This document shows, piece after piece, positions 1,178 through 16,507 of a stretch of DNA of 64,000 nucleotides. Source of the DNA: Fimbriimonadales bacterium (GTDB lineage: Bacteria; Armatimonadota; Fimbriimonadia; Fimbriimonadales; ATM1). The position numbers and the translations under genes were made by a program. The notes beneath the pieces are model-generated. The model made no database searches. It had not been told where the DNA came from and worked only from the letters and a program-made list of their open reading frames with translations. The number at the start of each line of letters is the position of its first letter. The stretch's first letter is position 1. Location of the stretch: positions 723,599 to 787,598 of the forward strand of contig JAXLTG010000001.1 of the NCBI GenBank assembly GCA_046330175.1. Reading direction: 5' to 3'.

Positions 1178-4100
1178 ATGCGCTATCGTAAGCTGGTTTT
1201 TGTAACCGTATCTGGTGCAGGCTGTTTGCCACTTATGGCATACGGCCAAGACATCTTTGGCGGGTCCCAAAAGGTCGAAGGCGCGCAAAGCGCGCAACTC
1301 GGCGGCCAGATGGCGGTAGATGTCATGCCGGGCTTCAGAACCGGGATTGGATATCCCTTGCGATACGCCGGAGTCATGAGGGGAAGCGTTCGTGTCGAAG
1401 TTGACGGAGCTCCTCTTGTCGAAGGCCGCGATTACACGATAGATTACGCCGGAGGTGTTGTCTACATCTCTGCAAAAGTTAGAAGCGAGCAAGCGATTAG
1501 AGTCGCGTATCGCCATGATCCAAAAGCGGCACAAAACCAGACAGGCGGTGGAGCGCTTCCACTTCTAAGCCTTAATTTCGGCGCAGTTGGCGACATTCAA
1601 ATGCTTCTGGGAATGAATGGCGTGAACCGCATGACGGACGGCTCACTCATGCAATCTCAAATGGCCGGAATGAAGAACTCATTCAACTTCGCCGGCGGGA
1701 GTTTGAACGGTGTGCTTTTGGTGTCTAGCCAATCGAAGTCCACCGTTCGCGCAGATTCATCTTCACCGGATCAAAACGCATCGAAGCAGGGCGTGGAAGG
1801 CACCGATCGGCTGATACTCCAAAGCTATGAAGATTCGGTCGGCGACTTCAAACTGAAACTCGATTACCAAGACGTAGGGAAGCGATTCGCAGGATTTGGA
1901 ATGCTGCAATCAGCGGGCTACAACGCCGCGACCGCAACTCAGCTTGAAAAAGAGAAAGGGCTGCAGCGGTTTGGTCTCGGCATGTCTGCGGGTAATGACA
2001 AAACCCTGTCGGTCTCAAACAGCTTCAAGGCTATTCAGGACGGCGACTCAAAGATTGAGTGGATGGGTTACAACATGAAGTCGAGCTTCTTCGACGCTTA
2101 CTTCAGTTCGCGAACAATTGACAAAGATTTCACGCGGTTCAGAGATATCGCAGAGGGTGATCGTGACCAGCTTTCAAAAGAAAAGGGAATAGATCGCCAG
2201 ACCATGGGCGGCGCAATGCGTTTCGCACAAGGCATGAGCCTGAAATTCGACCAGACCAAAATCGGCGACGCGAACGGCGATCTGGTGTTCAAGTCGCTGC
2301 AATATGCTTCGCCGTTCCTCAATATCGGATACTTGGATCAGTCATTTGGGAACGGCTTCGGGCGCGCCCGCGACCTCGTTGAAAACGAACGCGAGATTTG
2401 GGCGCGCCAACGCGGATTTGAGCGCAAGGACTTCACTGTTTCAACGCCGGAAAAGTTCAAAGGTCCGGCGCTGTCGTTCTCCACGCGAGAGGTAGCGGAT
2501 CGCAATAAAGACTTCTCTTCGAGCGCATTCAGCGTTTCACATGCGGGACACGCTTTCGAGTATTGGAATCGAGAATCGGAGAAGGGGTTCGGTCGTCTTG
2601 GAGACCTGCCACCGGGTGAGATTGACTCGATGATCGTGCAGACGCTGAAGGCTTACGACCCAAACGCAGGGCTCAATCCAAACGACCGAGGCGCATTCCC
2701 GCGGCAGGGCGGACTCAACCGCGAGTTCTTCCGTTACACGGGGACACCCGCGAAAGGATGGGGAATTCGGTTCGACCAGACTTCGATCTCAGAAGGCACG
2801 AACGGGATTGACCGAACGACGTTATCCCTGAATTCAAGTCTTTTCAACTTCAACTACCGCGGAATGGATTACGACGCTCAGTTCGGACGCGCAGGCGATT
2901 TGATGGAGATGGAGCGCAACTTGTTTGGCCAACAGATCGGGTTCAAGCGCAGCGATTGGTCGTTCGACACCAAACTTGGCAAAACCGGATCTATGGCGTT
3001 TTCAAATCTGGATGTTGATTCGGCACAAGGCGGCGCAAACCGATTCACCGGCCAGTACATCTCTCCGCAAGCCGAAATTCGCGCCGCGTTCCGATCTGTT
3101 GACAGTACGTTCTCAAGAGCAGGAAGCGTTGTGGATCCCGAGGCGGCCGTTTTCGGAGCGCTCGTGGGTTACAACCAACATGACGTTAGCTTCAAACTCA
3201 ACTCGATAAAGAATCTCAAGTTTGAAGGATTGGTTTACGGGTCCGATAACAAATCGAGAGGAGAGGGCAGGGACCGCGACCGGATCGCGATGAGCTACGA
3301 TTTCAACAAGAAGACAAACCTCTCGGTGACGAGTGACAGGCAGCATTTCGATGGTCGAAACGGTGCGATTTACCACAACGATTTCCTGTCCACTCAGTTG
3401 TTCCAAGACCTTGGTAAATACGGCAAGCTGACGCTTCGTAACGAAACCGAGGAGATTCTCGGCTCAAGCGCGGATCGACCGAGTCGAGACACTCAATATC
3501 TGAAGTATGAAAGTCAGATTTCGAAATCGTTGGGTATCGGTACGGAGCAGGCTCGAACCCAATTCGCCGATGGCGGTTTTGAAAACGTTCAGATTTACAA
3601 AGCCGACTGGAAGGTCACACCGAAGCTCACCATCACCGGCTCGGATATTTTGATTGATCGCGACGGAACCAAGCCGGATATGAACACGTACGCATACGGC
3701 TTCTCCTACGACTTTGGAAACAACCTGAAAATCGGCTACACACACTGGCGGGAGCTAAATTCTGTCGGGCTCGGCAAGCGCAATATCCGATGGGACGTAA
3801 GCAACGGTGACTACTACGGTTTTGATTTCGGTGGATTTTACGACGAGAAGCGGATAGACAACACGCGCACGACGTCGCTTGGTAATTTTCACATCGCCAA
3901 CAAGAAACCGTTCGACTTTGGCCCGCTGAGTGGCATCATGGTCAAGCTGGGACTCGACGCACAGTCAGACAATCAGGTCATCCAGAAAGAGAACAAGCTC
4001 GCCGACTTCTCAGCCAAACTTTTCGGCGCGGAGATCGGAGCGAGCTATGCCCACGTCATACTCGCCGGAGAGCATATCGGTGCCGACCGCATCTTCAGAG

Positions 4101-4663
4101 TTAACCTCGACCCAACCGGCAAGAAGCCGTTCCAGGCGAAAATGCAGTACAAGGTTCGTACGCTGCCCGGCGACAAAAACTTCGTCATTCGAAATTATGA
4201 TTTGGGATACAAAATTGCGAACAACGTAAGCTTAACGCACCAAGCAACGACCCTGCCGGAACAGGCTAATGGAGGAGTCCCGTTAGGCTCTCAACTTCTC
4301 CCGACCGGCACAACAAACTGGCAGCTTGATTACAAAGCGAACAAGGGCACGGGTGTGCAGTTTGCATTCAGCGAACTGTTCAATTGGCAGCAGCGAACGT
4401 TGGCGCGAAAACTCGAAGCCGGTATATCGCTCTTCGCGGATTCGGGCAGTCCGCTCAGACTCAAGTACGGAATTGAGAACGCGGAGCCCGCACCCGGACA
4501 GCGAAGAACCAGAACGGTCTACGAGATAAGTTTCGATCAGCGACCCGGCCCAAACCAAGTGCTAAGCTTCGCAATCGGCACGGTCAACTGGAGCGACCTC
4601 CTTCCGACAACCGGGCCGGCGACAAACATCACTCTGCGAGTGGACTATCAGTTGAAGTTCTGA
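1178..4663 (+). CDS. Large secreted protein of 1161 aa, a putative outer-membrane beta-barrel. It has a signal peptide and a C-terminal ...YQLKF ending in an aromatic residue.
   Basis: Long ORF starting 21 nt after the anti-sigma stop. N-terminal signal-like MRYRKLVFVTVSGAGCLPLMAYGQ. Composition rich in G/Y/F/N/D/S with alternating pattern. Terminal Phe. No Walker or TonB-box motifs seen. Confidence 0.5.
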   Translation: MRYRKLVFVTVSGAGCLPLMAYGQDIFGGSQKVEGAQSAQLGGQMAVDVMPGFRTGIGYPLRYAGVMRGSVRVEVDGAPLVEGRDYTIDYAGGVVYISAKVRSEQAIRVAYRHDPKAAQNQTGGGALPLLSLNFGAVGDIQMLLGMNGVNRMTDGSLMQSQMAGMKNSFNFAGGSLNGVLLVSSQSKSTVRADSSSPDQNASKQGVEGTDRLILQSYEDSVGDFKLKLDYQDVGKRFAGFGMLQSAGYNAATATQLEKEKGLQRFGLGMSAGNDKTLSVSNSFKAIQDGDSKIEWMGYNMKSSFFDAYFSSRTIDKDFTRFRDIAEGDRDQLSKEKGIDRQTMGGAMRFAQGMSLKFDQTKIGDANGDLVFKSLQYASPFLNIGYLDQSFGNGFGRARDLVENEREIWARQRGFERKDFTVSTPEKFKGPALSFSTREVADRNKDFSSSAFSVSHAGHAFEYWNRESEKGFGRLGDLPPGEIDSMIVQTLKAYDPNAGLNPNDRGAFPRQGGLNREFFRYTGTPAKGWGIRFDQTSISEGTNGIDRTTLSLNSSLFNFNYRGMDYDAQFGRAGDLMEMERNLFGQQIGFKRSDWSFDTKLGKTGSMAFSNLDVDSAQGGANRFTGQYISPQAEIRAAFRSVDSTFSRAGSVVDPEAAVFGALVGYNQHDVSFKLNSIKNLKFEGLVYGSDNKSRGEGRDRDRIAMSYDFNKKTNLSVTSDRQHFDGRNGAIYHNDFLSTQLFQDLGKYGKLTLRNETEEILGSSADRPSRDTQYLKYESQISKSLGIGTEQARTQFADGGFENVQIYKADWKVTPKLTITGSDILIDRDGTKPDMNTYAYGFSYDFGNNLKIGYTHWRELNSVGLGKRNIRWDVSNGDYYGFDFGGFYDEKRIDNTRTTSLGNFHIANKKPFDFGPLSGIMVKLGLDAQSDNQVIQKENKLADFSAKLFGAEIGASYAHVILAGEHIGADRIFRVNLDPTGKKPFQAKMQYKVRTLPGDKNFVIRNYDLGYKIANNVSLTHQATTLPEQANGGVPLGSQLLPTGTTNWQLDYKANKGTGVQFAFSELFNWQQRTLARKLEAGISLFADSGSPLRLKYGIENAEPAPGQRRTRTVYEISFDQRPGPNQVLSFAIGTVNWSDLLPTTGPATNITLRVDYQLKF

Positions 4664-4699: not shown

Positions 4700-6016
4700 T
4701 TGAAACATCTTTGGCTAAAGCTCACAAAAACCGACCTTGAGATCGAACTGCTTCAGTCAGAGCAGGAGGGAAGAGATGTGTCTGCGCTGCGTGCTAGGGT
4801 CGCCGCGCTCGACGAAACAGATCCAAGCTTTCAAGCCGCCGCCGACGGCTTGTATGCTCAATTCGCATCCTGCCCACGTCAGCAAGAATACGAATTCGAA
4901 GAGCCTTCAGGTTGGGATGAAATTCTTGCGACAGTCGTGACATCGCCGCAGCAACTCGCGGTCACTGGCGATTTAGAAGACAGAATCTATGGCGGCTGGC
5001 TCGGGCGGTGCGCGGGGTGTCTGCTCGGAAAGCCGATCGAAGGGTGGCATCGCACAAGGCTTCATTCGTACCTCAAAGCTTCAAAGCAGTTTCCGCTCAA
5101 CGACTACATCTCAATTGCGGCCGACCAACAAACGCTGCAAAACCATCAGGTTGACACGGAGCAACCGTTCAAAGAAAACGTTAACTGCATGGTCGAAGAT
5201 GACGACATCAACTACACGGTTACCGGGCTCGGCGTTATCGAAAGGTACGGACGCGAATTCAGCGCAAGCGACGTGTCCGAATTCTGGTTGGACTCGATTC
5301 CGATACTGAGAACTTGCACTGCAGAAAGAGTGGCGTACCGAAACGTAATGCTCGGTATTGCTCCACCTGATAGCGCGACGCATCGCAACCCGTATCGTGA
5401 GTGGATTGGCGCGCAAATACGCGCCGATTTCTGGGGATACATCAACCCTGGCGACCCGATGGCTGCGGCGGAGATGGCGTTTCGCGACGCTTCGGTTTCG
5501 CACATCAAGAACGGAATCTACGGAGAAATGTGGGCGGCCGCGATGGTCGCTCAAGCGTTCGCTGCAAATGACGCGCGCGAGTGCGTGACTGTTGCACTAA
5601 AATCGCTGCCGCCAAACTCGCGGCTTGCTCAAAGAATAAACCACCACCTGAAGTTTCACGATGACGGAGGGACGGTGGAGCAAGCCGTGAACGACATTCA
5701 CAGCTATTGGAACGAAGCGAACCCACACGATTGGTGCCACACTATCTCAAACGCGGAGGTTGTGGCTGTCGGATTGCTGTATGGCGAAAACGAGTTCGAG
5801 AAGTCCATCTGTATCGCAGTGGATGCCTGCTTCGACACGGATTGCAACGGTGCGACGGTCGGTTCGGTGCTGGGTGCCATGATTGGTTCGAAAGGTTTGC
5901 CGAAACGCTGGACTGGCATCCTCAACGACACGGTTCAAACTGGGGTCAGAGGTTTCGGGGAAGAGAGAATCTCAAAGCTCGCAGCGCGAACAGCCATGCT
6001 CGCAAAAAAAGAATGA
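4700..6016 (+). CDS. ADP-ribosylglycohydrolase family protein (DraG/ARH-like) with an N-terminal extension of about 90 aa.
   Basis: Motifs DRIYGGWLGRCAGCLLGKPIEGW (N-terminal Mg site region), DDDINYT, and C-terminal CFDTDCNGATVGSVLGAMIG typical of ARH fold. TTG start at 4700 is assumed, so the true start is uncertain. Confidence 0.7.
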   Translation: MKHLWLKLTKTDLEIELLQSEQEGRDVSALRARVAALDETDPSFQAAADGLYAQFASCPRQQEYEFEEPSGWDEILATVVTSPQQLAVTGDLEDRIYGGWLGRCAGCLLGKPIEGWHRTRLHSYLKASKQFPLNDYISIAADQQTLQNHQVDTEQPFKENVNCMVEDDDINYTVTGLGVIERYGREFSASDVSEFWLDSIPILRTCTAERVAYRNVMLGIAPPDSATHRNPYREWIGAQIRADFWGYINPGDPMAAAEMAFRDASVSHIKNGIYGEMWAAAMVAQAFAANDARECVTVALKSLPPNSRLAQRINHHLKFHDDGGTVEQAVNDIHSYWNEANPHDWCHTISNAEVVAVGLLYGENEFEKSICIAVDACFDTDCNGATVGSVLGAMIGSKGLPKRWTGILNDTVQTGVRGFGEERISKLAARTAMLAKKE

Positions 6017-6037
6017 GGCCCGATTGCTCGGGCCTCA
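6004..6037 (-). terminator. Rho-independent terminator for flagellin 1. A 9-bp GC stem (TGAGGCCCG/CGGGCCTCA) is followed on the minus strand by TTCTTTTTTT.
   Basis: Hairpin at 6014-6037. The run of A at 6004-6013 on the plus strand is a T-run on the minus strand. Sits immediately 3' of the fliC stop at 6062 and overlaps the stop of the convergent ARH gene. Confidence 0.6.
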
Positions 6038-6061
6038 TTACGCGCTGTCGCTCCGAGTAGA

Positions 6062-7501
6062 TTACTGGAGGAGCGAGAGCACGGACTGAGTGGAAGCGTT
6101 GGCCTGAGCCAAGATCGCGATGCCGGCCTGTGACAGGATCTGCAGCTTCGTGAAGTTGGTCATTTCTGCAGCCACGTCCAAGTCGCGGATGGTGCTTTCC
6201 GATGCAACCAGGTTCTCTCGAGCAACGCCGAGGCTTCGGACGTTAGATTCGAGAATGTTGCGTTGGAAGTTACCGATGCCGCCTCGCATTGAGGTGACCT
6301 GGCTAATCGCTGCGTCAATGATCTTCATGCCGTCGCTGACGCCCTGTGCAGTCGTGATGTCCACGCTTGCGAGGCTCGACGAGCCGACAACGCCTGTACC
6401 GAGCTGAGTCGTTGCAACGTTCGACAGCGAGAGGCTCGCGGTCTGTCCGGCGTTTGCGCCGAGCTGGAACGATGCAGAACCGGCTTGGATTCGGCCAACC
6501 GCAGCAGCGGCTGCGACGGCGTTACCGTCTTCGGTCAAGAGGACCGCGTTGCCGTATGCGTCGGTGAGTCGAAGACCTTCGTCGCCGTTTCGGCCGCCAG
6601 TGAACGTCGCAGAAGTTGCGCCGTTAGCGGTGGTGACAGAGACGGTTGCGATGGCGTTGCTGCCAGCGTCGTTCGCGAAACCAGCGGCATTCAGGATGCC
6701 GGCGTGGTCCGTGAAGTTAATCTGGAAGTTAGCGCCGTACTTGTTGTGCTCGAGAACAACGTTGGTTCCGTCGAACTGGAAGGTGACTCCAGTCTGACCA
6801 GAAGCGTTGTTGAGTCGAGAGAGCAAGCCGCCGAGAGTTTCGGTGCCGTCGGTGCTGAACGAGGTGCCGTTCACGATGAACGAACCCGCGCCAAGAACCG
6901 TGGCGAGGCCGTTTGCAGAGAGGTCAACCGAGCCGGTGATGACCGCTTTCGAAGCGGCGGTCGTAACCTGAACGGTGACGTTGCCGTTGGCGTTCACGGC
7001 GTATCCGCCGAAAGTGCCGCCCACGTTGATCGCAGCGTAGTTAGCTGCGTCGGTAACGGTCGAAACGATGCCCGCAGAACCGTCAAGAAGCTTCTTGTTG
7101 CCGAACTGAGTTTGGCTGGCGATTCGGTCAAGCGATGTAAGAATTGACTGAATCTGGTTCTGGTTAGCTTGGATGGCGTTTGAGTCGAGTGAGCCGCTGT
7201 TGCCTGAAGCGACCGCGAGTTTTCGCATGTCGTTGAGCAGCTTGCTAACTTCGTCAAGGGCGCCTTCAGCGGTCTTCGCATAGTTCACAGCGTCTTGGCT
7301 GTTTTGAATTGCCTGCTCCATACCACCGATCTGAGCTCGGAAGTTTTCCGAAATGATGAGGCCCGCCGGGTCGTCGGCTGCGTTAGTAATGCGCAAACCG
7401 GTCGAGAGGCGAGTCGCTGATTTCGAGAATTCGCCGCGCGTCGAGTTCAAGTTGCGAAGCGCGTTAATGCTCGAAAGGTTTGTGTTAATCCTGAATGACA
7501 T
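6062..7501 (-). CDS. fliC: Flagellin (FliC family), 479 aa, with a long variable central domain.
   Basis: N-terminus MSFRINTNLSSINALRNLN...LSTGLRITNAADDPAGL and C-terminus ...FTKLQILSQAGIAILAQANASTQSVLSLLQ are canonical D0/D1 flagellin segments. SD GGAGGAG lies 7 nt upstream of the ATG (7499-7501). Confidence 0.95.
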   Translation of the reverse strand: MSFRINTNLSSINALRNLNSTRGEFSKSATRLSTGLRITNAADDPAGLIISENFRAQIGGMEQAIQNSQDAVNYAKTAEGALDEVSKLLNDMRKLAVASGNSGSLDSNAIQANQNQIQSILTSLDRIASQTQFGNKKLLDGSAGIVSTVTDAANYAAINVGGTFGGYAVNANGNVTVQVTTAASKAVITGSVDLSANGLATVLGAGSFIVNGTSFSTDGTETLGGLLSRLNNASGQTGVTFQFDGTNVVLEHNKYGANFQINFTDHAGILNAAGFANDAGSNAIATVSVTTANGATSATFTGGRNGDEGLRLTDAYGNAVLLTEDGNAVAAAAAVGRIQAGSASFQLGANAGQTASLSLSNVATTQLGTGVVGSSSLASVDITTAQGVSDGMKIIDAAISQVTSMRGGIGNFQRNILESNVRSLGVARENLVASESTIRDLDVAAEMTNFTKLQILSQAGIAILAQANASTQSVLSLLQ

Positions 7502-7728
7502 TTAGTCTCCTCCATGAATGAGTCCCGTGTCCGGGATTTGATACTGCTTTTCTGCCTGCTGCTGCCGTCCGGGGCTTAGAGGCCGGTGCGCGAAGGCCAA
7601 ATCCTTGGTCTTATGCGCCCACGCAGTTTGTTCCGCCCGGTTTGCGGTCGAAAGGACAGGAAAAATACGGGGTACATAAAGAGCCGGCACATCTGCGGGC
7701 TGGTGAATCTGCCAGATACAATCGCACA

Positions 7729-8025
7729 ATGACCATCGAGTTCAGTGGGAGCATCTGGTACTGGAGGGGGCCGGCGCCGCACTACTTCGTCAGCGTTCCC
7801 GAGTCGGAGGCGGAGGAGCTGAAGGAGATTCTGAAGTCGGTCAGCTACGGCTGGGGCATGATCCCGGTGCGCGCGACCATCCGCGGTATCACGTTTGAAA
7901 CCTCGCTGTTCCCGAAAGATGGCGCGTACATCGTTCCTATTAAGATGAGTGTGCGAAAGCCGCTGGGGTTGGATGAGGGGGACGAGGTGGATATTCTGCT
8001 TGAGGTGATTTTCGCCGAGGGGTAG
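7729..8025 (+). CDS. DUF1905 domain protein.
   Basis: MTIEFSGSIWYWRGPAPHYFVSVPE...GWGMIPVRATIRGITFETSLFPKDGAYIVPIK matches the DUF1905 pattern. The longer ORF from 7642 is judged an N-terminal over-extension. Confidence 0.55.
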   Translation: MTIEFSGSIWYWRGPAPHYFVSVPESEAEELKEILKSVSYGWGMIPVRATIRGITFETSLFPKDGAYIVPIKMSVRKPLGLDEGDEVDILLEVIFAEG

Positions 8026-8183
8026 TTCACCGTATGAGATCCGCGGCAAATTATTGTTAGCACTAACGGCTGGACGGGCGTAGCGCAATCGAATCAGTTT
8101 CTGCGAGTTGTGAGTGTTGGCGCAGTTTAGTTCTACGACTATGCGAGAGAGGACACGCGGGGCGAAAGGTAATGAGAAAATTA

Positions 8184-8266
8184 TGCTCACCCTTTAGGGG
8201 GAGCCGCCGGAGCGAAGCGACGGCTGAGGGGGTAGAATCGGTCGTCACCTGTCTTCGAATCTGCGC
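8184..8266. repeat. Repeat family R1, copy a (about 83 bp).
   Basis: Direct sequence match to 8788-8913 apart from an insertion of about 44 bp in the latter. Begins with an imperfect hairpin GCTCACCC-TTTA-GGGGGAGC. Confidence 0.7.
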
Positions 8267-8661
8267 ACTACAACTCGCGTTTTGCACAATTCGTAGATCG
8301 CCCCCACAATTCCATCCAGATTTGTTTCGATCTCGCACGCGTGAACGCGCAGCGTCAAGATCCGTTTGTCGCTCAAATAACCGTCCCGCTTGGCGTCGCG
8401 CTCAACTCTGTCGTCGTGAAAGCGGCTGTCAATTTCTACGCAGAGTTTTGCTCGTGCACAATAGAAGTCCAAAACATACGGACCGAGCGGGAACTGACGC
8501 CGAAAACGATATCCAGTCGCGTCACCTTTGAGACACGACCAGAGGATCGCCTCTGGCTCTGAGAGGTTCTTGCGAGCCAATTTCGCTCGGCGGAGCGCGC
8601 TCTGATTTCGATTTTGGTGGAGCATCTGGGAAGTGTTGTCAATTGTAGTCCACCCCCTCAC
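8245..8661 (-). CDS. DUF559 domain endonuclease (Vsr-like fold).
   Basis: LRRAKLARKNLSEPEAILWSCLKG...RFRRQFPLGPYVLDFYCARAKLCVEIDSRFHDDRVERDAKRDGYLSDKRILTLRV matches the DUF559 signature. Start is GTG at 8661 or ATG at 8625. Confidence 0.7.
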   Translation of the reverse strand: MRGWTTIDNTSQMLHQNRNQSALRRAKLARKNLSEPEAILWSCLKGDATGYRFRRQFPLGPYVLDFYCARAKLCVEIDSRFHDDRVERDAKRDGYLSDKRILTLRVHACEIETNLDGIVGAIYELCKTRVVVRRFEDR

Positions 8662-8787
8662 CGTTCGTCCCGACTACCGTCGAAACTCACGGGGCTCCCC
8701 CTAAAGTGGGAGCAGGTTTTTGCTAAGCTGCGTGTTTTCCCGTTCTACTTACGTGCCTACTCATTGAGAATAGTGACCAGAAGAGTC

Positions 8788-8913
8788 TGCTCCCCCTTCA
8801 GGGGGAGCCGCCGGAGCGGAGTCGCAGACCCCGCCGAAGGGAAATGAACGGAGTGAATCGGGGCGACGGCTGAGGGGGTGGAATCGAGTCGTCACTTGTC
8901 TTCGAATCTCCGC
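8788..8913. repeat. Repeat family R1, copy b (126 bp). It begins with a perfect 8-bp hairpin GCTCCCCC-TTCA-GGGGGAGC and carries an insertion of about 44 bp relative to copy a.
   Basis: Alignment by eye with 8184-8266. Shared blocks are GGGGGAGCCGCCGGAGCG and GACGGCTGAGGGGGT.GAATCG.GTCGTCAC.TGTCTTCGAATCT. Confidence 0.7.
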
Positions 8914-9184
8914 GGAAGCTTCGCGGTCAATTTCAACGGAAGCACCTTGACGCAGAACCGTACGGTGTGCATAATGCGAAGAATGAGTGAGAGATTTATC
9001 GTGCCGCGCTCGTCCTCGCCGCGAGTCACCGGACAACCGGAGACTCGCGAGTATCGGTGTCAGGGAATGGAAGCCAACGCACGGGTCGGCAACCTAAGCG
9101 CAACCGTCTCGGCGGTAACCACACCGTGAGGGATGAGGGGTAGACCAATCCTCTATCTGCCGCCCCGTGCGGGAGGAACACTAG

Positions 9185-10243
9185 GTGCTTGACGCTCTTT
9201 CAAAATCGGAAGTGCCCTTGTGGGTGACGATCTTGCTTACGGTAGTCTCGCCGTTCCTCCTCGAGATTTCAAAGAGGTTGGTTCGCAAGACGCCGCCAGC
9301 CAATGACTCTCCCACTGCTGTCATACAAGGGCGCGAGGGGCAAACCGTGACCACAATCGTCTCGACGCAGCCGCACGCCGGCAGCGCATACAACGTCGGC
9401 CTCATGGACCGCCTGACTGCGAGCGTTCCCTTGCAAGGCTCTGGGGCTCAAGGCACAAATGCGTCCGAATTGCTCTTCCAAAAGGGTTTGGAATCGGCAA
9501 GGGCAGGTCACTGGGAAGCGACTCGTGACATCCTTGCGGTGGCGGTGCAGGTGGACCCGGCTCATCTGCGTTCGGTGAGAGGATTGATCGTGGCGGAGGC
9601 AGCCTTGGGGAACGACACGGTCGCCCTGGAACGCGTGAACCGCTCCCTCGATGCCGATCCTGCCGACCCGGAGATGTTGGAACTCCGGGCAATTATCCTG
9701 TCTGACACGGGCTTCTTTGCGGAAGCCGTACAAGTATTCGACGAAGCTGAACGAATTGGCGGGCCGAACTTTGCGATCTTCGTCAACCGAGCAATTTGCT
9801 ATCACTTGCTGGGGGAGGAAGGGATGTCGGAACTGGATTTTCGCCGTGCGCTCGCGATAAAACCCGACTGCACAGAAGCGCGCATCGGCTTAGCAAACGC
9901 CCGGACGAGCCAAGGCGACTACACCTCAGCGATGCCCGTCTACGACAAAGCAATACGCGAAGATTCTGACAACGCAATCGCTTTCGCGGCTAGAGCTATT
10001 GCCAGGGCGAACCTTCGCGATTGGAAAGGCGCGGTCGAGGACCTCGATGAGGCAGTCCGTCTCGACCCAGCCAATGACCGGGTGTTCCGCTTACGTGCGC
10101 GGGCCAAACTTGAATTAGGAGACGGAGGGGGTGCAGAAGTCGATAGGCGCATTGCAGATGCCTTGGCAAAAAGTCCCAAGCTCAGGAGCAACGTTTTTGG
10201 AGAGACAATTCTCTTTCGCCTGCCACCCCGGGTCGAAGAATAG
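9185..10243 (+). CDS. Tetratricopeptide-repeat protein with an N-terminal membrane anchor.
   Basis: GTG start. N-terminal hydrophobic VPLWVTILLTVVSPFLL. Repeated 34-residue A/L/Y/G patterns (e.g. ...AICYHLLGEEGMSELDFRRALAIKPDCTEARIGLANARTSQGDYTSAMPVYDKAIRED...). Confidence 0.7.
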   Translation: MLDALSKSEVPLWVTILLTVVSPFLLEISKRLVRKTPPANDSPTAVIQGREGQTVTTIVSTQPHAGSAYNVGLMDRLTASVPLQGSGAQGTNASELLFQKGLESARAGHWEATRDILAVAVQVDPAHLRSVRGLIVAEAALGNDTVALERVNRSLDADPADPEMLELRAIILSDTGFFAEAVQVFDEAERIGGPNFAIFVNRAICYHLLGEEGMSELDFRRALAIKPDCTEARIGLANARTSQGDYTSAMPVYDKAIREDSDNAIAFAARAIARANLRDWKGAVEDLDEAVRLDPANDRVFRLRARAKLELGDGGGAEVDRRIADALAKSPKLRSNVFGETILFRLPPRVEE

Positions 10244-10265
10244 TTTCGGGGCGAGTGACACGGTC

Positions 10266-10310
10266 GGGTGGCACGGACAACTCGTAGATGTTGTCCGTGC
10301 TTGATGCGGT
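10266..10310. repeat. Repeat family R2, copy 1. Hairpin with an 11-bp perfect stem: GCACGGACAAC-TCGTAGAT-GTTGTCCGTGC.
   Basis: Nearly identical to 11606-11640 (GGTGGCACGGGCAACTCGTAGATGTTGTCCGCG). Related to 10397-10428. Confidence 0.7.
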
Positions 10311-10396
10311 CTCAAACTAATCGCGTCAAGCGCGGAGAATCGTTCGAGCGGAAGTCGGTAATAATCATGATTATGATTGTTGAACAGCAGAAAGGT

Positions 10397-10482
10397 CGCA
10401 CACGGACAAGCGCTCCGCGTTGTCCGTGCCACCCGTCCGTGAGTGATGCGAAAAAAAAGGCGGGGGCGATGAACGCCACCCC
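10397..10482. repeat. Repeat family R2, copy 2. A CACGGACAA...TTGTCCGTG hairpin is followed by GATGCGAAAAAAAA and the hairpin GGCGGGGGCG-ATGAA-CGCCACCCCC, which is terminator-like on the minus strand.
   Basis: Block GCGAAAAAAAAGGCGGGGGCGATGAACGCCACCC is shared with 11646-11683. Confidence 0.65.
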
Positions 10483-10492
10483 CAGCGACTGA

Positions 10493-10517
10493 TCCCCTTC
10501 CTCCCGGCGCGGGAGGA
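10493..10517. repeat. Perfect GC-rich palindrome CCTTCCTCCCG-GCG-CGGGAGGAAGG.
   Basis: Reverse-complement symmetry read directly from the sequence. Confidence 0.6.
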
Positions 10518-10644
10518 AGGGCCAGGGATGGAGGGCTCGACGTTTGGCAAAATGCTCGGTGCGAAGAGAGTGAGCGAGCGATCGTCGTGAAGGAGATCGC
10601 GAATAACGGCGTGGGTACTCGAATGATTGAAACCTCCTATTCCG

Positions 10645-10671
10645 ACCTTTCCTCCTTGCCAAGGAGGAAAG
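10645..10671. repeat. Near-perfect 27-bp palindrome CCTTTCCTCCTTG-C-CAAGGAGGAAAGG. Each arm contains a Shine-Dalgarno-like AAGGAGGAAAGG.
   Basis: 13-bp arms are exact reverse complements around a single central base. Confidence 0.6.
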
Positions 10672-10713
10672 GGGCTGTTCGCACAACCACGCCAGCAGCA
10701 TCCGCGATTCAAA

Positions 10714-11445
10714 TCACCCGGATTCCTCGATCAGTTTCGACCATCGTTTCAATCGCCCGTCAATTATTCTGCGCTGTGCTCCACGCGATTCTAATCTCAG
10801 CCGCTCCAACTTCTCAACCCGTTGCTTCGCGATTCCAATAACGTGAGCTTGCACCGCGGCGAAATCCTCCTCGCTTCGAAACGCCGATTTCGGAATGAAG
10901 TACACAGTGGCGTTGGGAAGCTCGAATTGGAAAGAACCCTCGACGGCAGAGATCATGTTGATAACATCCCAATCGCAGGTAGTTCGAATACCCGAGGACT
11001 CAATGAGAATCGCCTTATCGGAGAGTGTGCCGTTTCTTTCGTCATAAAAAGAGTTGTACAGCGGGCTTTCGAGCCACGCATTAGTTTGTCGCAGCCGTTT
11101 TGCCTTTGAGATCGCGACACTCCCCCAAAGGATTATCGCGATTCCGAACGACAACAGATACATACCAAACGGCGAGGGCTCGTCGCTGTAAAGATATGTC
11201 CAAAAAGGCACGAATGCCGTGACCAAGCCGATCCACATAATTACGCAATTGGACGCCCCATGCTCGCGCCGGTATTGGCTCGCCGCCCAACGGTTACCGT
11301 CATCTTTAGTAAACCGCCAGGGGTTTAGCTGTATCTCCACGTAGGTAATTATGAAGCGGGTGCGTGGCAGGGTGCCGCGGATGAATCGTTGCTGTTGTCC
11401 GAGAGTGATGCGAATGCCGCCGCTCCGAATCCCCCTCTCATGCAT
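10714..11445 (-). CDS. Hypothetical membrane protein of YcxB-like architecture, with two TM helices and a C-terminal PH-like domain. It is flanked by direct R2 repeat copies.
   Basis: Hydrophobic pair VIMWIGLVTAFVPFWTYLY / MYLLSFGIAIILWGSVAI followed by a soluble domain. The start codon is uncertain, since an internal Met is possible. Assignment is by architecture only. Confidence 0.45.
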   Translation of the reverse strand: MHERGIRSGGIRITLGQQQRFIRGTLPRTRFIITYVEIQLNPWRFTKDDGNRWAASQYRREHGASNCVIMWIGLVTAFVPFWTYLYSDEPSPFGMYLLSFGIAIILWGSVAISKAKRLRQTNAWLESPLYNSFYDERNGTLSDKAILIESSGIRTTCDWDVINMISAVEGSFQFELPNATVYFIPKSAFRSEEDFAAVQAHVIGIAKQRVEKLERLRLESRGAQRRIIDGRLKRWSKLIEESG

Positions 11446-11605
11446 CTGTGCGGGAGAGGGGCAAGGGGAGAGGGTGTCCCGAAACCGATCGTCAAGTTAG
11501 TTGACCTGATCAACCGCAACCCGATCAAATCTCATCCTCACCCCCTCTCTATGTCTCTCCCCCGCGCCGACGCAGGGGAGAGATTTCCTAATGCGATACC
11601 ACGGC

Positions 11606-11686
11606 GGGTGGCACGGGCAACTCGTAGATGTTGTCCGCGAGCAATGCGAACAAAAAAGGCGGGGGCGATGAACGCCACCCGCCTTG
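11606..11686. repeat. Repeat family R2, copy 3. It contains the hairpin GGCACGGGCAAC-TCGTAGAT-GTTGTCCGCG, an A-run, and the hairpin GGCGGGGGCG-ATGAA-CGCCACCCGCC.
   Basis: Matches copies 1 and 2. Located in the 3' UTR of flagellin 2. Confidence 0.7.
11649..11683 (-). terminator. Rho-independent terminator of flagellin 2. On the minus strand the GC hairpin (11658-11683) is followed by TTTTTTG.
   Basis: Stem GGCGGGGGCG/CGCC(A)CCCGCC with loop ATGAA. The A6 run at 11652-11657 on the plus strand is a U-run on the minus transcript. It is 24 nt downstream of the TAG at 11707-11709. Confidence 0.65.
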
Positions 11687-11706
11687 CGTGTTTTCCCCTT
11701 ACGTGC

Positions 11707-13146
11707 CTACCTGAAAAGACTAAGTACGTTCTGTGAGCTCTGATTCGCTTGGGAAAGAACCGCCAAACCGGCTTGGCTAAGAATCTGCAGCTTTGTGAAC
11801 TGCGTCATCTCCGCCGCCACGTCCAGATCGCGAATCGTGCTTTCGGTAACAATCACGTTTTCACGCGTGATGTTGAGCGAGCGCACGTTGCTTTCAAGAA
11901 CGTTTCGCTGGAAGTTTCCGATGTTGCCTCGAATGGACGTGACGTGCGTAATCGCTTCGTCAATAATCCTAATCGCTTCATTGACACCGTTCGCAGTGGT
12001 GATGTCAATGGTCGAGAGGTTTTTGCCGTTGATGACGCCGCCTCCGAGCTGACTGGTCATGATGTTCGAGAGCGAGAGCGACACCGATTGTCCCGCATTC
12101 GATCCGATTTGGAACGATGCAGATCCGGCGTCAATTCGACCGACCGCAGCGGCTGCGCCAACGGCGTTGCCTGCTTCGGTAAGAACGATTGCGTTTCCGT
12201 AGTTGTCGGTGAGCTTCAGGCCCTGGTCGCTGTTTCGTCCACCAGTGAACGTTGCAGTCATCGGCCCGTTCGCAGTTGTGACGGTCACGTCGGCGATCGC
12301 ATCCGTGCCTGCCGCGTTGACGTTGCCCGCGCCGTTAATCAGACCCGCAGTGTCCGTAAAGCTAATCTTAAAGTTCGAGCCATACGTGGACTGTGTGAGA
12401 ACGACGTTTGTGCCGTCGAAGTTGAACGACACGCCGGTAATGTTCGATGCGGCATTGAATCGCGAGAGAAGCGATTGCAGCGATTCGGTGCCGTCGGTGC
12501 TGAACGCCATTCCGTTTACGACGAATGTGCCTGCGCCAAGAATGGTGTCCATTCCATTTGCAGAGAGGTCAACCGAACCAGTGATGGTGGCTCGCGAGGC
12601 TGCGGTTGTGACTTGAACGGTCACGGTGCCGCTGCTGTTGACGCTGACGTTGCTAAACGTTCCGCCAACGTTGATGTAGTCGTAGTTGGCGGCGTCGGTA
12701 ACGGTTGAGACGATTCCAGCAGAACCGTCGAGCAGCTTCTTGTTGCCGAATTGGGTTTGGGTTGCGATTCTGTCAATCGAAGAAAGGATGGACTGAATCT
12801 GGTTCTGGTTTGCGCGAATAGCTGTGCTGTCGAGCGCGCCGGTGTTGCCCGATGCGACTGCGAGCTTTCTTGCGTCGGTGAGCAGTCGGCTCACTTCGTC
12901 GAAAGCGCCTTCGGCGGTCTTTGCGTAGTTGATGGCGTCCTGGTTGTTTTGGACGGCCTGTTCCAAGCCTTTGATTTGGGCCCGGAAGTTTTCAGAGATG
13001 ATAAGGCCGGCAGGGTCATCCGCAGCAGTGGTGATTCGCAAGCCGGTCGAAAGCCGAGTGATGGAGTGTGTGAAGTCTGAGGTTGTATTGCCCAGATTTC
13101 GGAGCGCGGTAAGCGCGCCAACGTTGGTATTGACACGAAACGACAT
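11707..13146 (-). CDS. fliC: Flagellin (FliC family) paralog, 479 aa, about 80% identical to the 6062-7501 copy. The start is reassigned to the internal ATG.
   Basis: MSFRVNTNVGALTALRNLGNT...LSTGLRITTAADDPAGLIISENFRAQ and C-terminus ...TQFTKLQILSQAGLAVLSQANQSSQNVLSLFR. The ATG at 13144-13146 is preceded by AAGGAGGA 6 nt upstream. The 27-codon extension to 13227 has no RBS. Confidence 0.95.
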   Translation of the reverse strand: MSFRVNTNVGALTALRNLGNTTSDFTHSITRLSTGLRITTAADDPAGLIISENFRAQIKGLEQAVQNNQDAINYAKTAEGAFDEVSRLLTDARKLAVASGNTGALDSTAIRANQNQIQSILSSIDRIATQTQFGNKKLLDGSAGIVSTVTDAANYDYINVGGTFSNVSVNSSGTVTVQVTTAASRATITGSVDLSANGMDTILGAGTFVVNGMAFSTDGTESLQSLLSRFNAASNITGVSFNFDGTNVVLTQSTYGSNFKISFTDTAGLINGAGNVNAAGTDAIADVTVTTANGPMTATFTGGRNSDQGLKLTDNYGNAIVLTEAGNAVGAAAAVGRIDAGSASFQIGSNAGQSVSLSLSNIMTSQLGGGVINGKNLSTIDITTANGVNEAIRIIDEAITHVTSIRGNIGNFQRNVLESNVRSLNITRENVIVTESTIRDLDVAAEMTQFTKLQILSQAGLAVLSQANQSSQNVLSLFR

Positions 13147-13350
13147 GTGATCCTCCTTGATGTCGTAAGGGTTGTAAGAGATCGCGTCGGTCTGGCAATC
13201 CGTCGCCTTCCTTGGCGTCTCTGGCACTTTCGCAGGGAAAAACTGCGAATCTTGCCTGGGATATTCCTGTTAGAACTGCCTGAATCCCAAGCAGAATTAC
13301 CGGGTTTGGTCCCGATATTTCTGCTGGGTTGGTTCGAGCATAATCAGCTC

Positions 13351-16415: not shown

Positions 16416-16507
16416 TGGCGGAGAGGGTGGGATTCGAACCCACGGGAGCCTTGCGACCCCACCGCATTTCGAGTGCGGCGCACTAGACCGGGCTATGCGA
16501 CCTCTCC
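16416..16507 (-). tRNA. tRNA-Ser (anticodon CGA), 92 nt with a long variable arm. CCA is encoded.
   Basis: The reverse complement folds as a cloverleaf: acceptor GGAGAGG/CCUCUCC, anticodon stem CCGCA/UGCGG with loop CUCGAAA, long extra arm, T-loop GUUCGAAUC, discriminator G plus CCA. Confidence 0.85.

What the first reader, a model, noticed from the sequence alone, without database searches (positions are those of the whole stretch)
6062..13146. Two about 80% identical flagellin genes in direct orientation flank a 4.2 kb repeat- and hairpin-saturated island
Both fliC copies are on the minus strand and share near-identical D0/D1 termini, but differ in blocks of the central domain. Between them lies an accessory-looking island carrying DUF1905, DUF559, TPR and YcxB-like ORFs. 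The island also holds at least two short-repeat families and many perfect GC palindromes.

Direct repeats of about 1.4 kb (the flagellin genes themselves) plus internal repeats make this locus prone to homologous recombination. Deletion, duplication or gene conversion between flagellin copies would give antigenic or functional variation.
Basis: seen in the sequence. Interest (0 to 1): 0.55.

Follow-up and report, generated by a model that had tools for sequence, protein, structure and literature searches.

The report
Old flagellin pair flanking strain-variable islet
Two long-diverged flagellin genes of an uncultured Fimbriimonadia (Armatimonadota) bacterium sit either side of a 4.2 kb accessory island that related species lack; the island's gene content differs between near-identical strains, but the two flagellin copies show no sign of recombining with each other.

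Summary
The layout is real. Two intact 479-aa flagellin genes lie on the minus strand (6062-7501 and 11707-13146) and flank a 4205-nt island. The island carries DUF1905, DUF559, TPR and weakly YcxB-like ORFs, two locus-specific repeat families and six perfect hairpins (about 0.8 expected).

The identity figure is wrong. The copies are 72% identical in protein and 69.6% in DNA. Synonymous sites are saturated (dS 1.37), the longest exact run is 23 nt, and the gene ends are the least similar parts.

Five related lineages carry the same tandem pair with only a 247-365 nt spacer. The pair is therefore ancestral and the island is a lineage-specific insertion. Each copy groups with its positional counterpart in a sister species (bootstrap 95-100%). 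No A/B hybrid flagellin appears among the closest public homologues.

The island does vary. In strains 96-99.9% identical in the flanks, segment 9132-11604 (TPR plus YcxB-like) is replaced by a PIN_12 gene, an AbiJ-like candidate defence gene, or CHASE2 plus caspase-like genes. Where both junctions were recovered (PIN_12 and AbiJ-like alleles) they match the window's. SNP mosaics point to exchange between strains by homologous recombination in the conserved flanks.

Verdict: an ordinary old flagellin duplication plus a small hotspot of gene-content variation. Interest is modest.

The parts
6012..6039 (-). Terminator-like hairpin downstream of fliC-A (12-bp stem followed by a T run)
   Evidence: also one of the perfect hairpins
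6062..7501 (-). fliC-A, 479-aa flagellin. It is the positional orthologue of the downstream copy, next to the ADP-ribosylglycohydrolase gene, in related genomes
   Evidence: orthology
7729..8025 (+). DUF1905 gene (98 aa as called in public contigs; the ORF can be extended to 7642). It is the oldest island layer and is kept in strains about 94% identical
8164..8266 (.). Repeat B copy 1 (hairpin CTCACCCTTTAGGGGGAG plus GC-rich tail). It overlaps the 3' end of DUF559
8245..8661 (-). DUF559 (Vsr-like endonuclease fold) gene; 126 aa (8245-8625) in the NCBI annotation
8649..8721 (.). Repeat B, partial inverted copy at the 5' end of DUF559
   Evidence: (I3-I5)
8729..8760 (.). Relic copy of the sequence that immediately follows the fliC-B stop codon (compare 11685-11710)
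   Evidence: D14, D15; read directly
8768..8913 (.). Repeat B copy 3, a direct repeat of copy 1 with a 41-nt insert
8878..9129 (+). Small conserved ORF. Its real start is probably an internal ATG at 8974, 8983 or 9067, and its stop abuts the left edge of the variable slot
   Evidence: 13 of 13 differences from strain L100 are synonymous in this frame; no family hit
9132..11604 (.). Variable slot. It holds TPR plus YcxB-like here. Other strains have a PIN_12 gene (990 nt), an AbiJ_NTD4/PDC-S32 gene (860 nt), or CHASE2 plus caspase-like genes (>3.3 kb)
9185..10243 (+). TPR-repeat protein, 352 aa
10262..10310 (+). Palindrome A copy, 22 nt after the TPR stop (11-bp perfect stem, 8-nt loop)
   Evidence: z -5.2
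10398..10441 (-). Palindrome A, inverted copy
   Evidence: (I1)
10435..10481 (.). Duplicate of the right arm of A plus the fliC-B terminator. 29 nt are exact, and the copy is 97.6-97.9% identical to the fliC-B-proximal sequence of PIN-allele strains
   Evidence: (D6, D7)
10495..10521 (.). Perfect 12-bp hairpin CCCTTCCTCCCG..CGGGAGGAAGGG. Most short-read contigs of the YcxB module end 3-5 nt beyond it
10646..10672 (.). Perfect hairpin CCTTTCCTCCTTG.CAAGGAGGAAAGG
10714..11445 (-). 243-aa membrane-protein ORF, weakly YcxB-like. It lies in a 1.1 kb module (10490-11604) that is recovered as stand-alone contigs
11554..11583 (.). Perfect hairpin TCTCTCCCC..GGGGAGAGA
11605..11648 (+). Palindrome A copy between the slot and the fliC-B terminator. 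It is present in every allele, differs in sequence between alleles, and here its hairpin is degraded
   Evidence: z +0.4
11650..11684 (-). fliC-B intrinsic terminator (GC hairpin plus T6)
   Evidence: z -5.0
11707..13146 (-). fliC-B, 479-aa flagellin. It is the positional orthologue of the upstream copy, next to the beta-eliminating lyase gene

Best explanation
The locus has two superimposed and mechanistically separate features.

(1) An old tandem duplication of the flagellin gene. It is inherited from the common ancestor with at least one sister species, and both copies are kept intact by purifying selection. I infer that they serve as two filament subunits or as differently regulated flagellins.

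(2) A lineage-specific accessory islet that has grown inside the formerly ~250-370 nt spacer between the copies. It is layered:
- DUF1905 next to fliC-A is the oldest layer.
- A DUF559 gene bracketed by repeat B is intermediate.
- The segment next to the fliC-B terminator (9132-11604) is a replaceable slot. Its cargo differs between strains that are otherwise up to 99.9% identical.

Cargo most likely turns over through homologous recombination between strains. The crossovers would fall in the conserved flanks: the small ORF and DUF559 side on one side, and the terminator and fliC-B side on the other. This is the usual behaviour of core-gene-flanked hotspots.

The short repeats and hairpins are best read as scars and junction elements of successive insertions. 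These include duplicated pieces of the fliC-B 3' flank and terminator.

Shown: the anatomy, the ancestral short spacer, positional orthology, the alternative alleles with shared junctions, and the SNP mosaics. Inferred: the recombination route, the order of accretion, and any function of the cargo.
For: Ancestral pair and inserted island:
- The sister species (L094-L097) has the same gene order M50 - lyase - fliC - 264 nt - fliC - ADP-ribosylglycohydrolase - 1161-aa protein - L10 - L7/L12 and no island.
- Four more lineages have spacers of 253, 248, 247 and 365 nt.

Age and independence of the two copies:
- dS 1.37, dN 0.224.
- The NJ tree joins winA with L094_2 (95.5% bootstrap) and winB with L094_1 (100%).

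Alternative alleles:
- The PIN_12 allele occurs in four independent assemblies, including NCBI CAZCWP010000025.1. It joins the window at 11605 and 9132.
- The AbiJ_NTD4 allele (PADLOC PDC-S32, E 3e-48) occurs in two samples and joins at 11603 and 9131.
- The CHASE2 plus Peptidase_C14 allele joins at 11605.
- Strains about 94% identical keep DUF1905 but diverge beyond 8013.

Mosaicism:
- The PIN strain differs from the window at 10 sites in 11.5 kb, and 6 of them lie in the 40 nt next to the slot.
- In the AbiJ strain, 8017-9071 is 100% identical to the window. The next 52 nt carry 13 synonymous changes, and fliC-B is 2.3% divergent.

Scars:
- 47-nt direct repeats of A plus terminator flank the YcxB module.
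- A relic of the fliC-B 3' flank lies at 8729-8760.

No integrase or transposase gene lies in the island, or in window 1-23146, according to the gene tables.
Against: - The recombination route is inferred from SNP patterns in a handful of metagenome contigs, not from a population sample.
- Several alleles share nearly the same junctions. That could also result from a site-specific mechanism.
- No empty-slot haplotype was found.
- The 73 nt at 10300-10372, which link the TPR and YcxB modules, are supported only by the source assembly and not by any short-read contig I retrieved.
- Only one alternative cargo gene is a recognised candidate defence gene. The window's own cargo has no defence hit.
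- Expression and function of either flagellin are untested.
Confidence: 0.75

Rival explanations
1. One reading: the two flagellin genes act as 1.4 kb direct repeats. RecA-dependent recombination or gene conversion between them currently produces deletions, duplications or mosaic flagellins, and so antigenic or functional variation in this organism.
For: - The copies are in tandem direct orientation.
- A related genome (L098) carries a 749-nt identical tract flanked by 68-76% identical ends, which is a conversion signature.
- In four other lineages the two copies cluster by genome.
- Intragenomic flaA/flaB recombination is documented in Campylobacter (PMC5126078, citing Wassenaar 1995 and Harrington 1997).
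Against: - In this genome the copies share 69.6% nt identity, 48% identity at third positions, and a longest exact run of 23 nt.
- Positional orthology with the sister species has 95-100% bootstrap support.
- No chimeric flagellin is found among the closest homologues, and no cluster lies at 80-99% identity.
- Every contig with an identical fliC-A or fliC-B shows the gene intact in its usual flank.
- From general knowledge, recombination efficiency falls steeply with divergence and needs roughly 25 nt or more of identity.
Confidence: 0.07
2. The slot is a site-specific cassette array. Palindrome A (12-nt arms around an 8-nt spacer, the geometry of a tyrosine-recombinase core site) would be the recombination site. 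Each cargo gene would travel with its own A copy, inserted or exchanged by a recombinase encoded elsewhere.
For: - Three or four different cargos occupy the same slot, with junctions within 1-3 nt.
- Every allele has an A copy at the fliC-B side. The window has further copies after the TPR gene and next to the YcxB module.
- A differs between alleles while the surrounding 11 kb is nearly invariant: 6 of 10 SNPs fall in A.
- A is confined to this locus within the 64 kb window and within the fetched loci of this species.
- The YcxB module is flanked by 47-nt direct repeats.
Against: - No recombinase gene lies in the island or within window 1-23146. The nearest is a XerC/D-like gene just beyond the window start, and the island-free sister species has it too.
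- The left junction is simply the stop codon of a conserved small ORF, not an A half-site.
- The arms vary without compensation, and the fliC-B-proximal copy folds no better than shuffled sequence.
- A is too short and wrongly organised for an integron attC site.
- A metagenome-wide scan found no convincing family of A elements flanking cassettes elsewhere.
- SNP clustering in a quasi-palindrome can also arise from template-switch mutation.
Confidence: 0.1
3. The island is a single mobile element, such as a decayed transposon or integrative element, that inserted once between the flagellin genes.
For: It is absent from all other lineages examined. It contains repeats and a DUF559 nuclease-fold gene bracketed by direct repeats.
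Against: - It has no integrase, transposase or terminal inverted repeats spanning the whole island.
- Its layers have different phylogenetic depths. DUF1905 is shared with strains about 94% identical, DUF559 only with the closer strains (the window-type, PIN and AbiJ strains), and the slot varies between strains that differ by only about 0.1% in the flanks.
- GC content matches the surrounding genome.
Confidence: 0.05
4. The variants, or the island itself, are assembly artefacts of metagenome binning or repeat collapse.
For: - All data are metagenome assemblies.
- Short-read contigs break at the repeats.
- One 73-nt link (10300-10372) is not independently bridged.
Against: - The window arrangement is matched at 99.9-100% identity by many independent samples on both sides.
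- The PIN and AbiJ alleles each recur with identical junctions in independent runs. Single contigs span the slot: L153 runs from fliC-B to DUF1905, L100 from fliC-B through DUF559 into DUF1905, and L003 from the fliC-B terminator/A region through fliC-A.
Confidence: 0.03

Closest known systems
Tandem flagellin paralogues such as Campylobacter jejuni flaA/flaB
   Same: Two full-length flagellin genes lie head to tail on one strand. Both are intact. Related genomes show signs of concerted evolution or gene conversion (L098).
   Different: flaA and flaB are about 95% identical, lie adjacent, and recombine with each other (PMC5126078). Here the copies are 70% identical in DNA, are separated by 4.2 kb of unrelated genes, and show no exchange since before the split from a sister species.
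Core-gene-flanked hotspots of accessory and defence genes (P. aeruginosa cDHS1/2, PMC10250203; E. coli defence-island hotspots, PMC10121019)
   Same: The flanking genes are conserved while near-identical strains carry different cargo. The cargo includes a candidate defence gene (AbiJ_NTD4/PDC-S32) and conflict-type domains (PIN, caspase-like). No mobile-element genes lie within the spot.
   Different: This spot is very small, holding one or two genes (0.9 to >3.3 kb) against a median of 26 kb for cDHS1. The flanks are two paralogous flagellin genes. The cargo in this window has no recognised defence hit. The spot exists only in one species-level lineage.
Salmonella fliC/fljB phase variation (Hin invertase switch)
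   Same: There are two alternative flagellin genes in one genome. Inverted repeats (A+/A-) flank a 101-nt segment inside the island.
   Different: There is no invertase gene, no fljA-like repressor and no promoter-bearing invertible segment next to either flagellin gene. The inverted A copies lie 1.3 kb from the nearest flagellin gene, at its 3' side.
Flagellin glycosylation islands next to flagellin genes (Campylobacter, Aeromonas, Pseudomonas)
   Same: A strain-variable gene cluster is physically associated with flagellin genes.
   Different: There are no glycosyltransferase, Maf/motility-accessory or nonulosonic-acid synthesis genes. The Pfam content is DUF1905, DUF559, TPR and YcxB-like.
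Integron cassette arrays and CALINs
   Same: Single-gene units are each followed by an imperfect palindrome, and the units are arranged serially.
   Different: No integron integrase is present. A is about 32-45 nt and has its CAAC/GTTG motif at the inner stem, rather than the R''-L''...L'-R' layout of attC sites, which are 57-141 nt (from general knowledge). One module is in the opposite orientation.

Membership tests
Bacterial flagellin (FliC/Hag family) | N-terminal and C-terminal helical domains (Pfam Flagellin_N and Flagellin_C) in one full-length ORF | tested here: met
   Both ORFs hit PF00669 (E 7e-35 and 6e-34) and PF00700 (E 3e-21 and 1e-21) end to end. NCBIfam flagellin models hit below the equivalog cut-offs, as expected for a distant phylum.
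Recombining tandem flagellin pair (flaA/flaB type) | Tandem, same-strand arrangement of two flagellin genes | tested here: met
   Both are on the minus strand with a 5645-nt start-to-start distance.
Recombining tandem flagellin pair (flaA/flaB type) | High nucleotide identity or long identical tracts that can support homologous exchange | tested here: not met
   69.6% nt identity; longest exact run 23 nt; dS 1.37.
Recombining tandem flagellin pair (flaA/flaB type) | Evidence of intragenomic exchange (mosaic tracts, paralogues clustering by genome, hybrid genes) | tested here: not met
   Positional orthologues cluster across species (95.5% and 100% bootstrap), and winA+winB clusters in 0% of replicates. 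No chimeras were found. The feature is met in the relative L098, with a 749-nt identical tract.
Invertase-controlled flagellar phase variation (Hin/fljBA type) | Site-specific recombinase gene plus an invertible promoter segment adjacent to a flagellin operon | tested here: not met
   No recombinase domain occurs in any island ORF or in window 1-23146 (gene tables). The only inverted repeat pair (10259-10299 and 10401-10441) is distant from both flagellin promoters.
Flagellin glycosylation island | Glycosyltransferase or sugar-biosynthesis genes in the flagellin-linked variable region | tested here: not met
   Pfam content of the island and of the alternative alleles contains none.
Core-gene-flanked accessory/defence hotspot | Conserved flanking genes with different intervening gene content in closely related strains | tested here: met
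   Four cargo alleles lie between flanks that are 96-99.9% identical.
Core-gene-flanked accessory/defence hotspot | Cargo enriched in anti-phage defence systems | tested here: inconclusive
   One allele is PADLOC PDC-S32/AbiJ_NTD4 (E 3e-48). The PIN_12 and CHASE2 plus caspase alleles are conflict-type domains without a PADLOC hit. The window's own cargo has no hit apart from weak nuclease matches for DUF559.
Integron / attC cassette array | IntI integrase and attC sites with R''-L''/L'-R' architecture | tested here: not met
   No integrase lies within window 1-23146. A is a simple 11-12 bp stem with an 8-nt loop, about 32-45 nt in total. The rest of the genome could not be examined.

The most novel reading that the evidence does not exclude
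Palindrome A would be the recombination site of a compact cassette system that has no integrase gene within the 23 kb of flanking sequence examined. Single genes, each carrying its own A copy, would be swapped into a fixed slot beside the fliC-B terminator by a recombinase encoded elsewhere. A housekeeping Xer-type enzyme is one possible candidate, as proposed for dif-like modules in other bacteria. This would be a new way of building a strain-variable gene slot in Armatimonadota, possibly for defence genes.
Probability: 0.1. Interest if true: 0.6.

Novelty: new member of a known kind. Interest (0 to 1): 0.3.

Why it matters
The finding corrects a plausible but wrong reading: paired flagellin genes do not imply ongoing antigenic switching. 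The two genes here are old, independently evolving paralogues.

What changes quickly is a one- or two-gene slot between them. In some strains that slot carries a candidate anti-phage gene. This gives a clean, small example of a hotspot of gene-content variation in a poorly studied phylum known mostly from metagenomes.

It also gives a natural comparison set for asking when tandem flagellins undergo concerted evolution. Five related lineages have short spacers, and one of them shows an active conversion tract. Nothing here changes current understanding of flagella or of genome plasticity.

Tried and rejected
- **Genome-wide REP elements.** I searched for repeats A and B across the 64 kb window and all fetched loci. 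Both are confined to this locus, so they are not genome-wide REP elements.
- **Collection scans for A.** I scanned the metagenome collection (45 hits) and the viral collection (1 hit) for the A core. None came from this locus. A few share the GGGTGG flank but lie in unrelated contexts: L110 sits between two transposase-like ORFs, and L143 lies inside an ORF in an integrase-bearing contig. No family could be defined.
- **A half-site at the left junction.** I first read the left slot junction 'CTCACGG' as half of an A site. I rejected this because it is the reverse complement of the Pro-stop codons of a conserved small ORF.
- **DUF559 plus repeat B as a mobile unit.** I looked for evidence of mobility. 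Only one paralogue was found (P0122, 73% identical, same 2.23 Mb contig), and its DNA could not be retrieved. This remains untested.
- **Apparent variants L002 and L004.** They looked different in the gene tables. They proved colinear with the window at 99.9%, so the differences came from gene calling.
- **Flagellin promoters.** A motif CCYGGTAATTCTGC is shared upstream of fliC-B and most orthologues but is not evident upstream of fliC-A. I could not assign a sigma factor.
- **Rfam and tRNA scans.** They found only two tRNAs, both outside the region.
- **Literature.** Searches for DUF559 mobility and for Fimbriimonas flagellins returned nothing relevant.

Full report
**What is at the coordinates**

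ORF listing and Pfam scans confirm two complete 479-aa flagellin genes on the minus strand, at 6062-7501 (fliC-A) and 11707-13146 (fliC-B). Each has Flagellin_N and Flagellin_C domains.

The 4205 nt between them contain:
- DUF1905 (7729-8025, +).
- DUF559 (8245-8661, -).
- A TPR protein (9185-10243, +).
- A 243-aa membrane ORF (10714-11445, -). Its YcxB match is below Pfam's threshold.

The flanking genes are an ADP-ribosylglycohydrolase (4700-6016) and a beta-eliminating lyase (457 aa as called in public contigs, ending at 14724). The organism is an uncultured Fimbriimonadia/Fimbriimonadales bacterium of the phylum Armatimonadota.

**How similar the two flagellins are**

They align without gaps at 72% amino-acid identity and 69.6% nucleotide identity. 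Third codon positions are only 48% identical, and the longest exact runs are 20-23 nt. Nei-Gojobori estimates are dS 1.37 (saturated) and dN 0.224. Both copies are therefore old and under purifying selection.

The first and last 60 nt are the least similar stretches (57% and 50%). This contradicts 'near-identical termini'. Divergence is spread along the gene rather than confined to central blocks.

**Repeats and hairpins**

Two repeat families are real, and within the window they occur only here.

Family A is a 12-8-12 palindrome, GGGTGGCACGGACAAC-TCGTAGAT-GTTGTCCGTGC. It lies at 10265-10308, inverted at 10398-10441, and at 11605-11648, with a weak fourth copy at 11369-11412.

Family B is a CTCCCCCT..AGGGGGAG hairpin with a GC-rich tail. 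It lies at 8164-8266, inverted at 8649-8721, and at 8768-8913, bracketing DUF559.

Two further duplications involve the fliC-B 3' flank:
- A 29-nt exact copy of the fliC-B terminator lies at 10453-10481.
- A relic of the sequence just after the fliC-B stop codon lies at 8729-8760.

Six of the window's 18 perfect hairpins (stem >=8) lie in the island, which is 6.6% of the sequence. Binomial P is 7e-4, and simulations expect 0.8. Most fold far better than shuffled controls. The A copy next to fliC-B does not (z +0.4).

**The tandem pair is ancestral and the island is an insertion**

A sister species (L094-L097; flagellins 79-80% identical to the window's) has the same gene order over more than 16 kb. 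In it the two flagellin genes are separated by only 264 nt. Four further related lineages have tandem pairs with spacers of 253, 248, 247 and 365 nt. Only the 17 nt after the upstream gene's stop codon, and the region around the downstream gene's ribosome-binding site, are recognisably shared with the window. The 4.2 kb island is therefore a lineage-specific addition to a short ancestral spacer.

**No exchange between the two copies in this lineage**

In a neighbour-joining tree with 200 bootstraps, fliC-A groups with the downstream copy of the sister species (95.5%). fliC-B groups with the upstream copy (100%). The two window copies never group together (identity matrix).

Among the 45 best homologues, every 479-aa protein was checked segment by segment. 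None is A-like in one part and B-like in another. The full list of 120 contains no cluster between 80% and 99% identity to fliC-A, which is where a hybrid would fall. All public contigs that encode an identical fliC-A or fliC-B show it intact in its usual flank.

The L098 pair has a 749-nt exactly identical central tract between ends that are 68% and 76% identical. In four other lineages the two copies cluster by genome. From general knowledge, homologous recombination needs roughly 25 nt of identity and falls steeply with divergence. At 30% divergence the window's copies are poor substrates.

**The island varies between strains, but by cargo replacement**

Comparing public contigs with the window at the DNA level shows that the segment 9132-11604 (TPR plus YcxB-like, 2472 nt) is a replaceable slot. 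Three alternative alleles were found:
- A 990-nt segment with a PIN_12 gene. It occurs in four independent assemblies: L003, L088, L090 and L099 (= NCBI CAZCWP010000025.1). L099 is 99.91% identical to the window over 11.5 kb of flank.
- An 860-nt segment with an AbiJ_NTD4 protein that matches PADLOC candidate system PDC-S32 (E 3e-48). It occurs in L100 and L153.
- CHASE2 plus a caspase-like protein, in L101 and L102.

The junctions lie at 11603-11605 in all three alleles. They lie at 9131-9132 in the two alleles where that side was recovered.

Strains about 94% identical keep DUF1905 next to fliC-A but diverge beyond 8013 and show no DUF559 gene there. The island is therefore layered by age: DUF1905 is oldest, DUF559 is intermediate, and the slot next to fliC-B is youngest.

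The 1.1 kb YcxB module (10490-11604) is recovered as stand-alone contigs in eight or more samples. It is flanked by 47-nt direct repeats of A plus terminator.

**How the cargo is probably exchanged**

The SNP maps are mosaic. The PIN strain differs from the window at 10 positions in 11.5 kb, and six of these lie in the 40 nt of palindrome A next to the slot.

In the AbiJ strain, 8017-9071 (including DUF559 and both B repeats) is 100% identical to the window. The next 52 nt carry 13 differences, and fliC-B is 2.3% divergent. All 13 differences are synonymous in the + frame ending at 9129. This reveals a small conserved ORF whose stop codon abuts the slot. It also shows that a recombination breakpoint lies inside conserved flanking sequence.

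This pattern is what inter-strain homologous recombination in conserved flanks would produce. That is the usual explanation for hotspots that lack mobile-element genes (PMC10250203, PMC10121019). No integrase or transposase is encoded in the island or within window 1-23146. The nearest tyrosine recombinase is a XerC/D-like gene about 1 kb beyond the window start, and the island-free sister species has it too.

**The more exotic alternative**

Palindrome A has the geometry of a tyrosine-recombinase core site. It sits at the cargo boundary in every allele. It is repeated after the TPR gene and beside the YcxB module, and it differs between alleles. A site-specific cassette mechanism therefore cannot be excluded.

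Several observations count against it:
- The left junction is just a stop codon.
- The arms vary without compensation, and one copy no longer folds.
- No recombinase is nearby.
- A metagenome-wide scan gave no coherent family of A-flanked cassettes.

I give this reading about 10%.

**Comparison with known systems, and verdict**

The flagellin pair resembles tandem flagellin paralogues such as Campylobacter flaA/flaB in layout. It fails the features that make those recombinogenic.

The locus also lacks the defining features of three other systems:
- It is not a Hin-type switch, because it has no invertase and no invertible promoter.
- It is not a glycosylation island, because it has no sugar genes.
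- It is not an integron, because it has no IntI and no attC architecture.

The island fits the known category of core-gene-flanked hotspots of accessory and defence genes. Its unusual features are its very small size, its restriction to one lineage, and the fact that its flanks are two flagellin paralogues.

The locus is a new member of known kinds and of modest interest.

**Caveats**

All comparative data are metagenome assemblies. The 73 nt at 10300-10372 are not independently bridged. Expression and function are untested.

Noticed in passing
window 8878-9129 (+); likely start at ATG 8974, 8983 or 9067: An unannotated small ORF ends exactly at the left edge of the variable slot. All 13 nucleotide differences from strain L100 (at 9072-9123) are synonymous, so it appears to be a real gene under purifying selection. 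It has no Pfam or NCBIfam hit. A sigma-70-like site (TTGACG-17-CATAAT, 8947-8975) lies at its 5' end. It is on the same strand as the TPR, PIN and AbiJ cargo genes, so it could be co-transcribed with them.
   Followed up: partly
L098 8313-9752 and 10001-11440 (NCBI FWPU01001126.1): The tandem flagellin pair of a related genome has a 749-nt exactly identical central tract between ends that are 68% and 76% identical. This is a clear recent gene-conversion tract. Pairs in L092, L168 and L170 also cluster by genome.
   Followed up: partly
window 8017-9071 versus L100 and L153: The segment containing DUF559 and the B repeats is 100% identical between the window and the AbiJ-allele strain, although the neighbouring sequence differs by 1-2.3%. 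This suggests recent lateral exchange of that segment. A second DUF559 paralogue (P0122, 73% identical) is reported on the same 2.23 Mb NCBI contig, but its DNA could not be fetched.
   Followed up: partly
window 16416-16507 (tRNA-Ser); L100 909-2186: In strain L100, homology with the window stops at about 16435, inside or next to tRNA-Ser. A 425-aa phage-type integrase follows, so this looks like a separate strain-specific integrative element at the tRNA gene.
   Followed up: no
window 13190-13300 (upstream of fliC-B) and the equivalent regions of L094, L092, L007 and L098: A motif CCYGGTAATTCTGC(C/T)TGG, possibly a sigma-28-like -10 element, is conserved upstream of fliC-B and of most orthologous flagellin genes. 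It is not evident in the 230 nt upstream of fliC-A, which faces the divergent DUF1905 gene. The two copies may be regulated differently.
   Followed up: partly
window 1178-4663 (+): A 1161-aa protein has a signal-peptide-like N terminus and a C-terminal ...YQLKF (outer-membrane beta-barrel-like) but no significant Pfam hit. A protein of similar size lies near the flagellin locus in the relatives examined (L006 by tblastn, 45% identity; L092, L094, L168 and L170 by size and position in the gene tables). In L168 a FliD cap gene is also nearby.
   Followed up: no
window 10309-10397: A 101-nt segment containing an AT-rich palindrome (ATAATCATGATTAT) is bracketed by inverted copies of palindrome A (41-nt arms, 85% complementary). 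It is formally invertible, but no recombinase is nearby and no contig shows the opposite orientation.
   Followed up: no
L110 2075-2102 (also L117, L137, L141): Unrelated metagenome contigs carry GGGTGG-CACGGACAAC-N8-GTTGTCCGTG palindromes very like element A. In L110 the palindrome lies between two transposase-like ORFs. The resemblance may be coincidental.
   Followed up: partly
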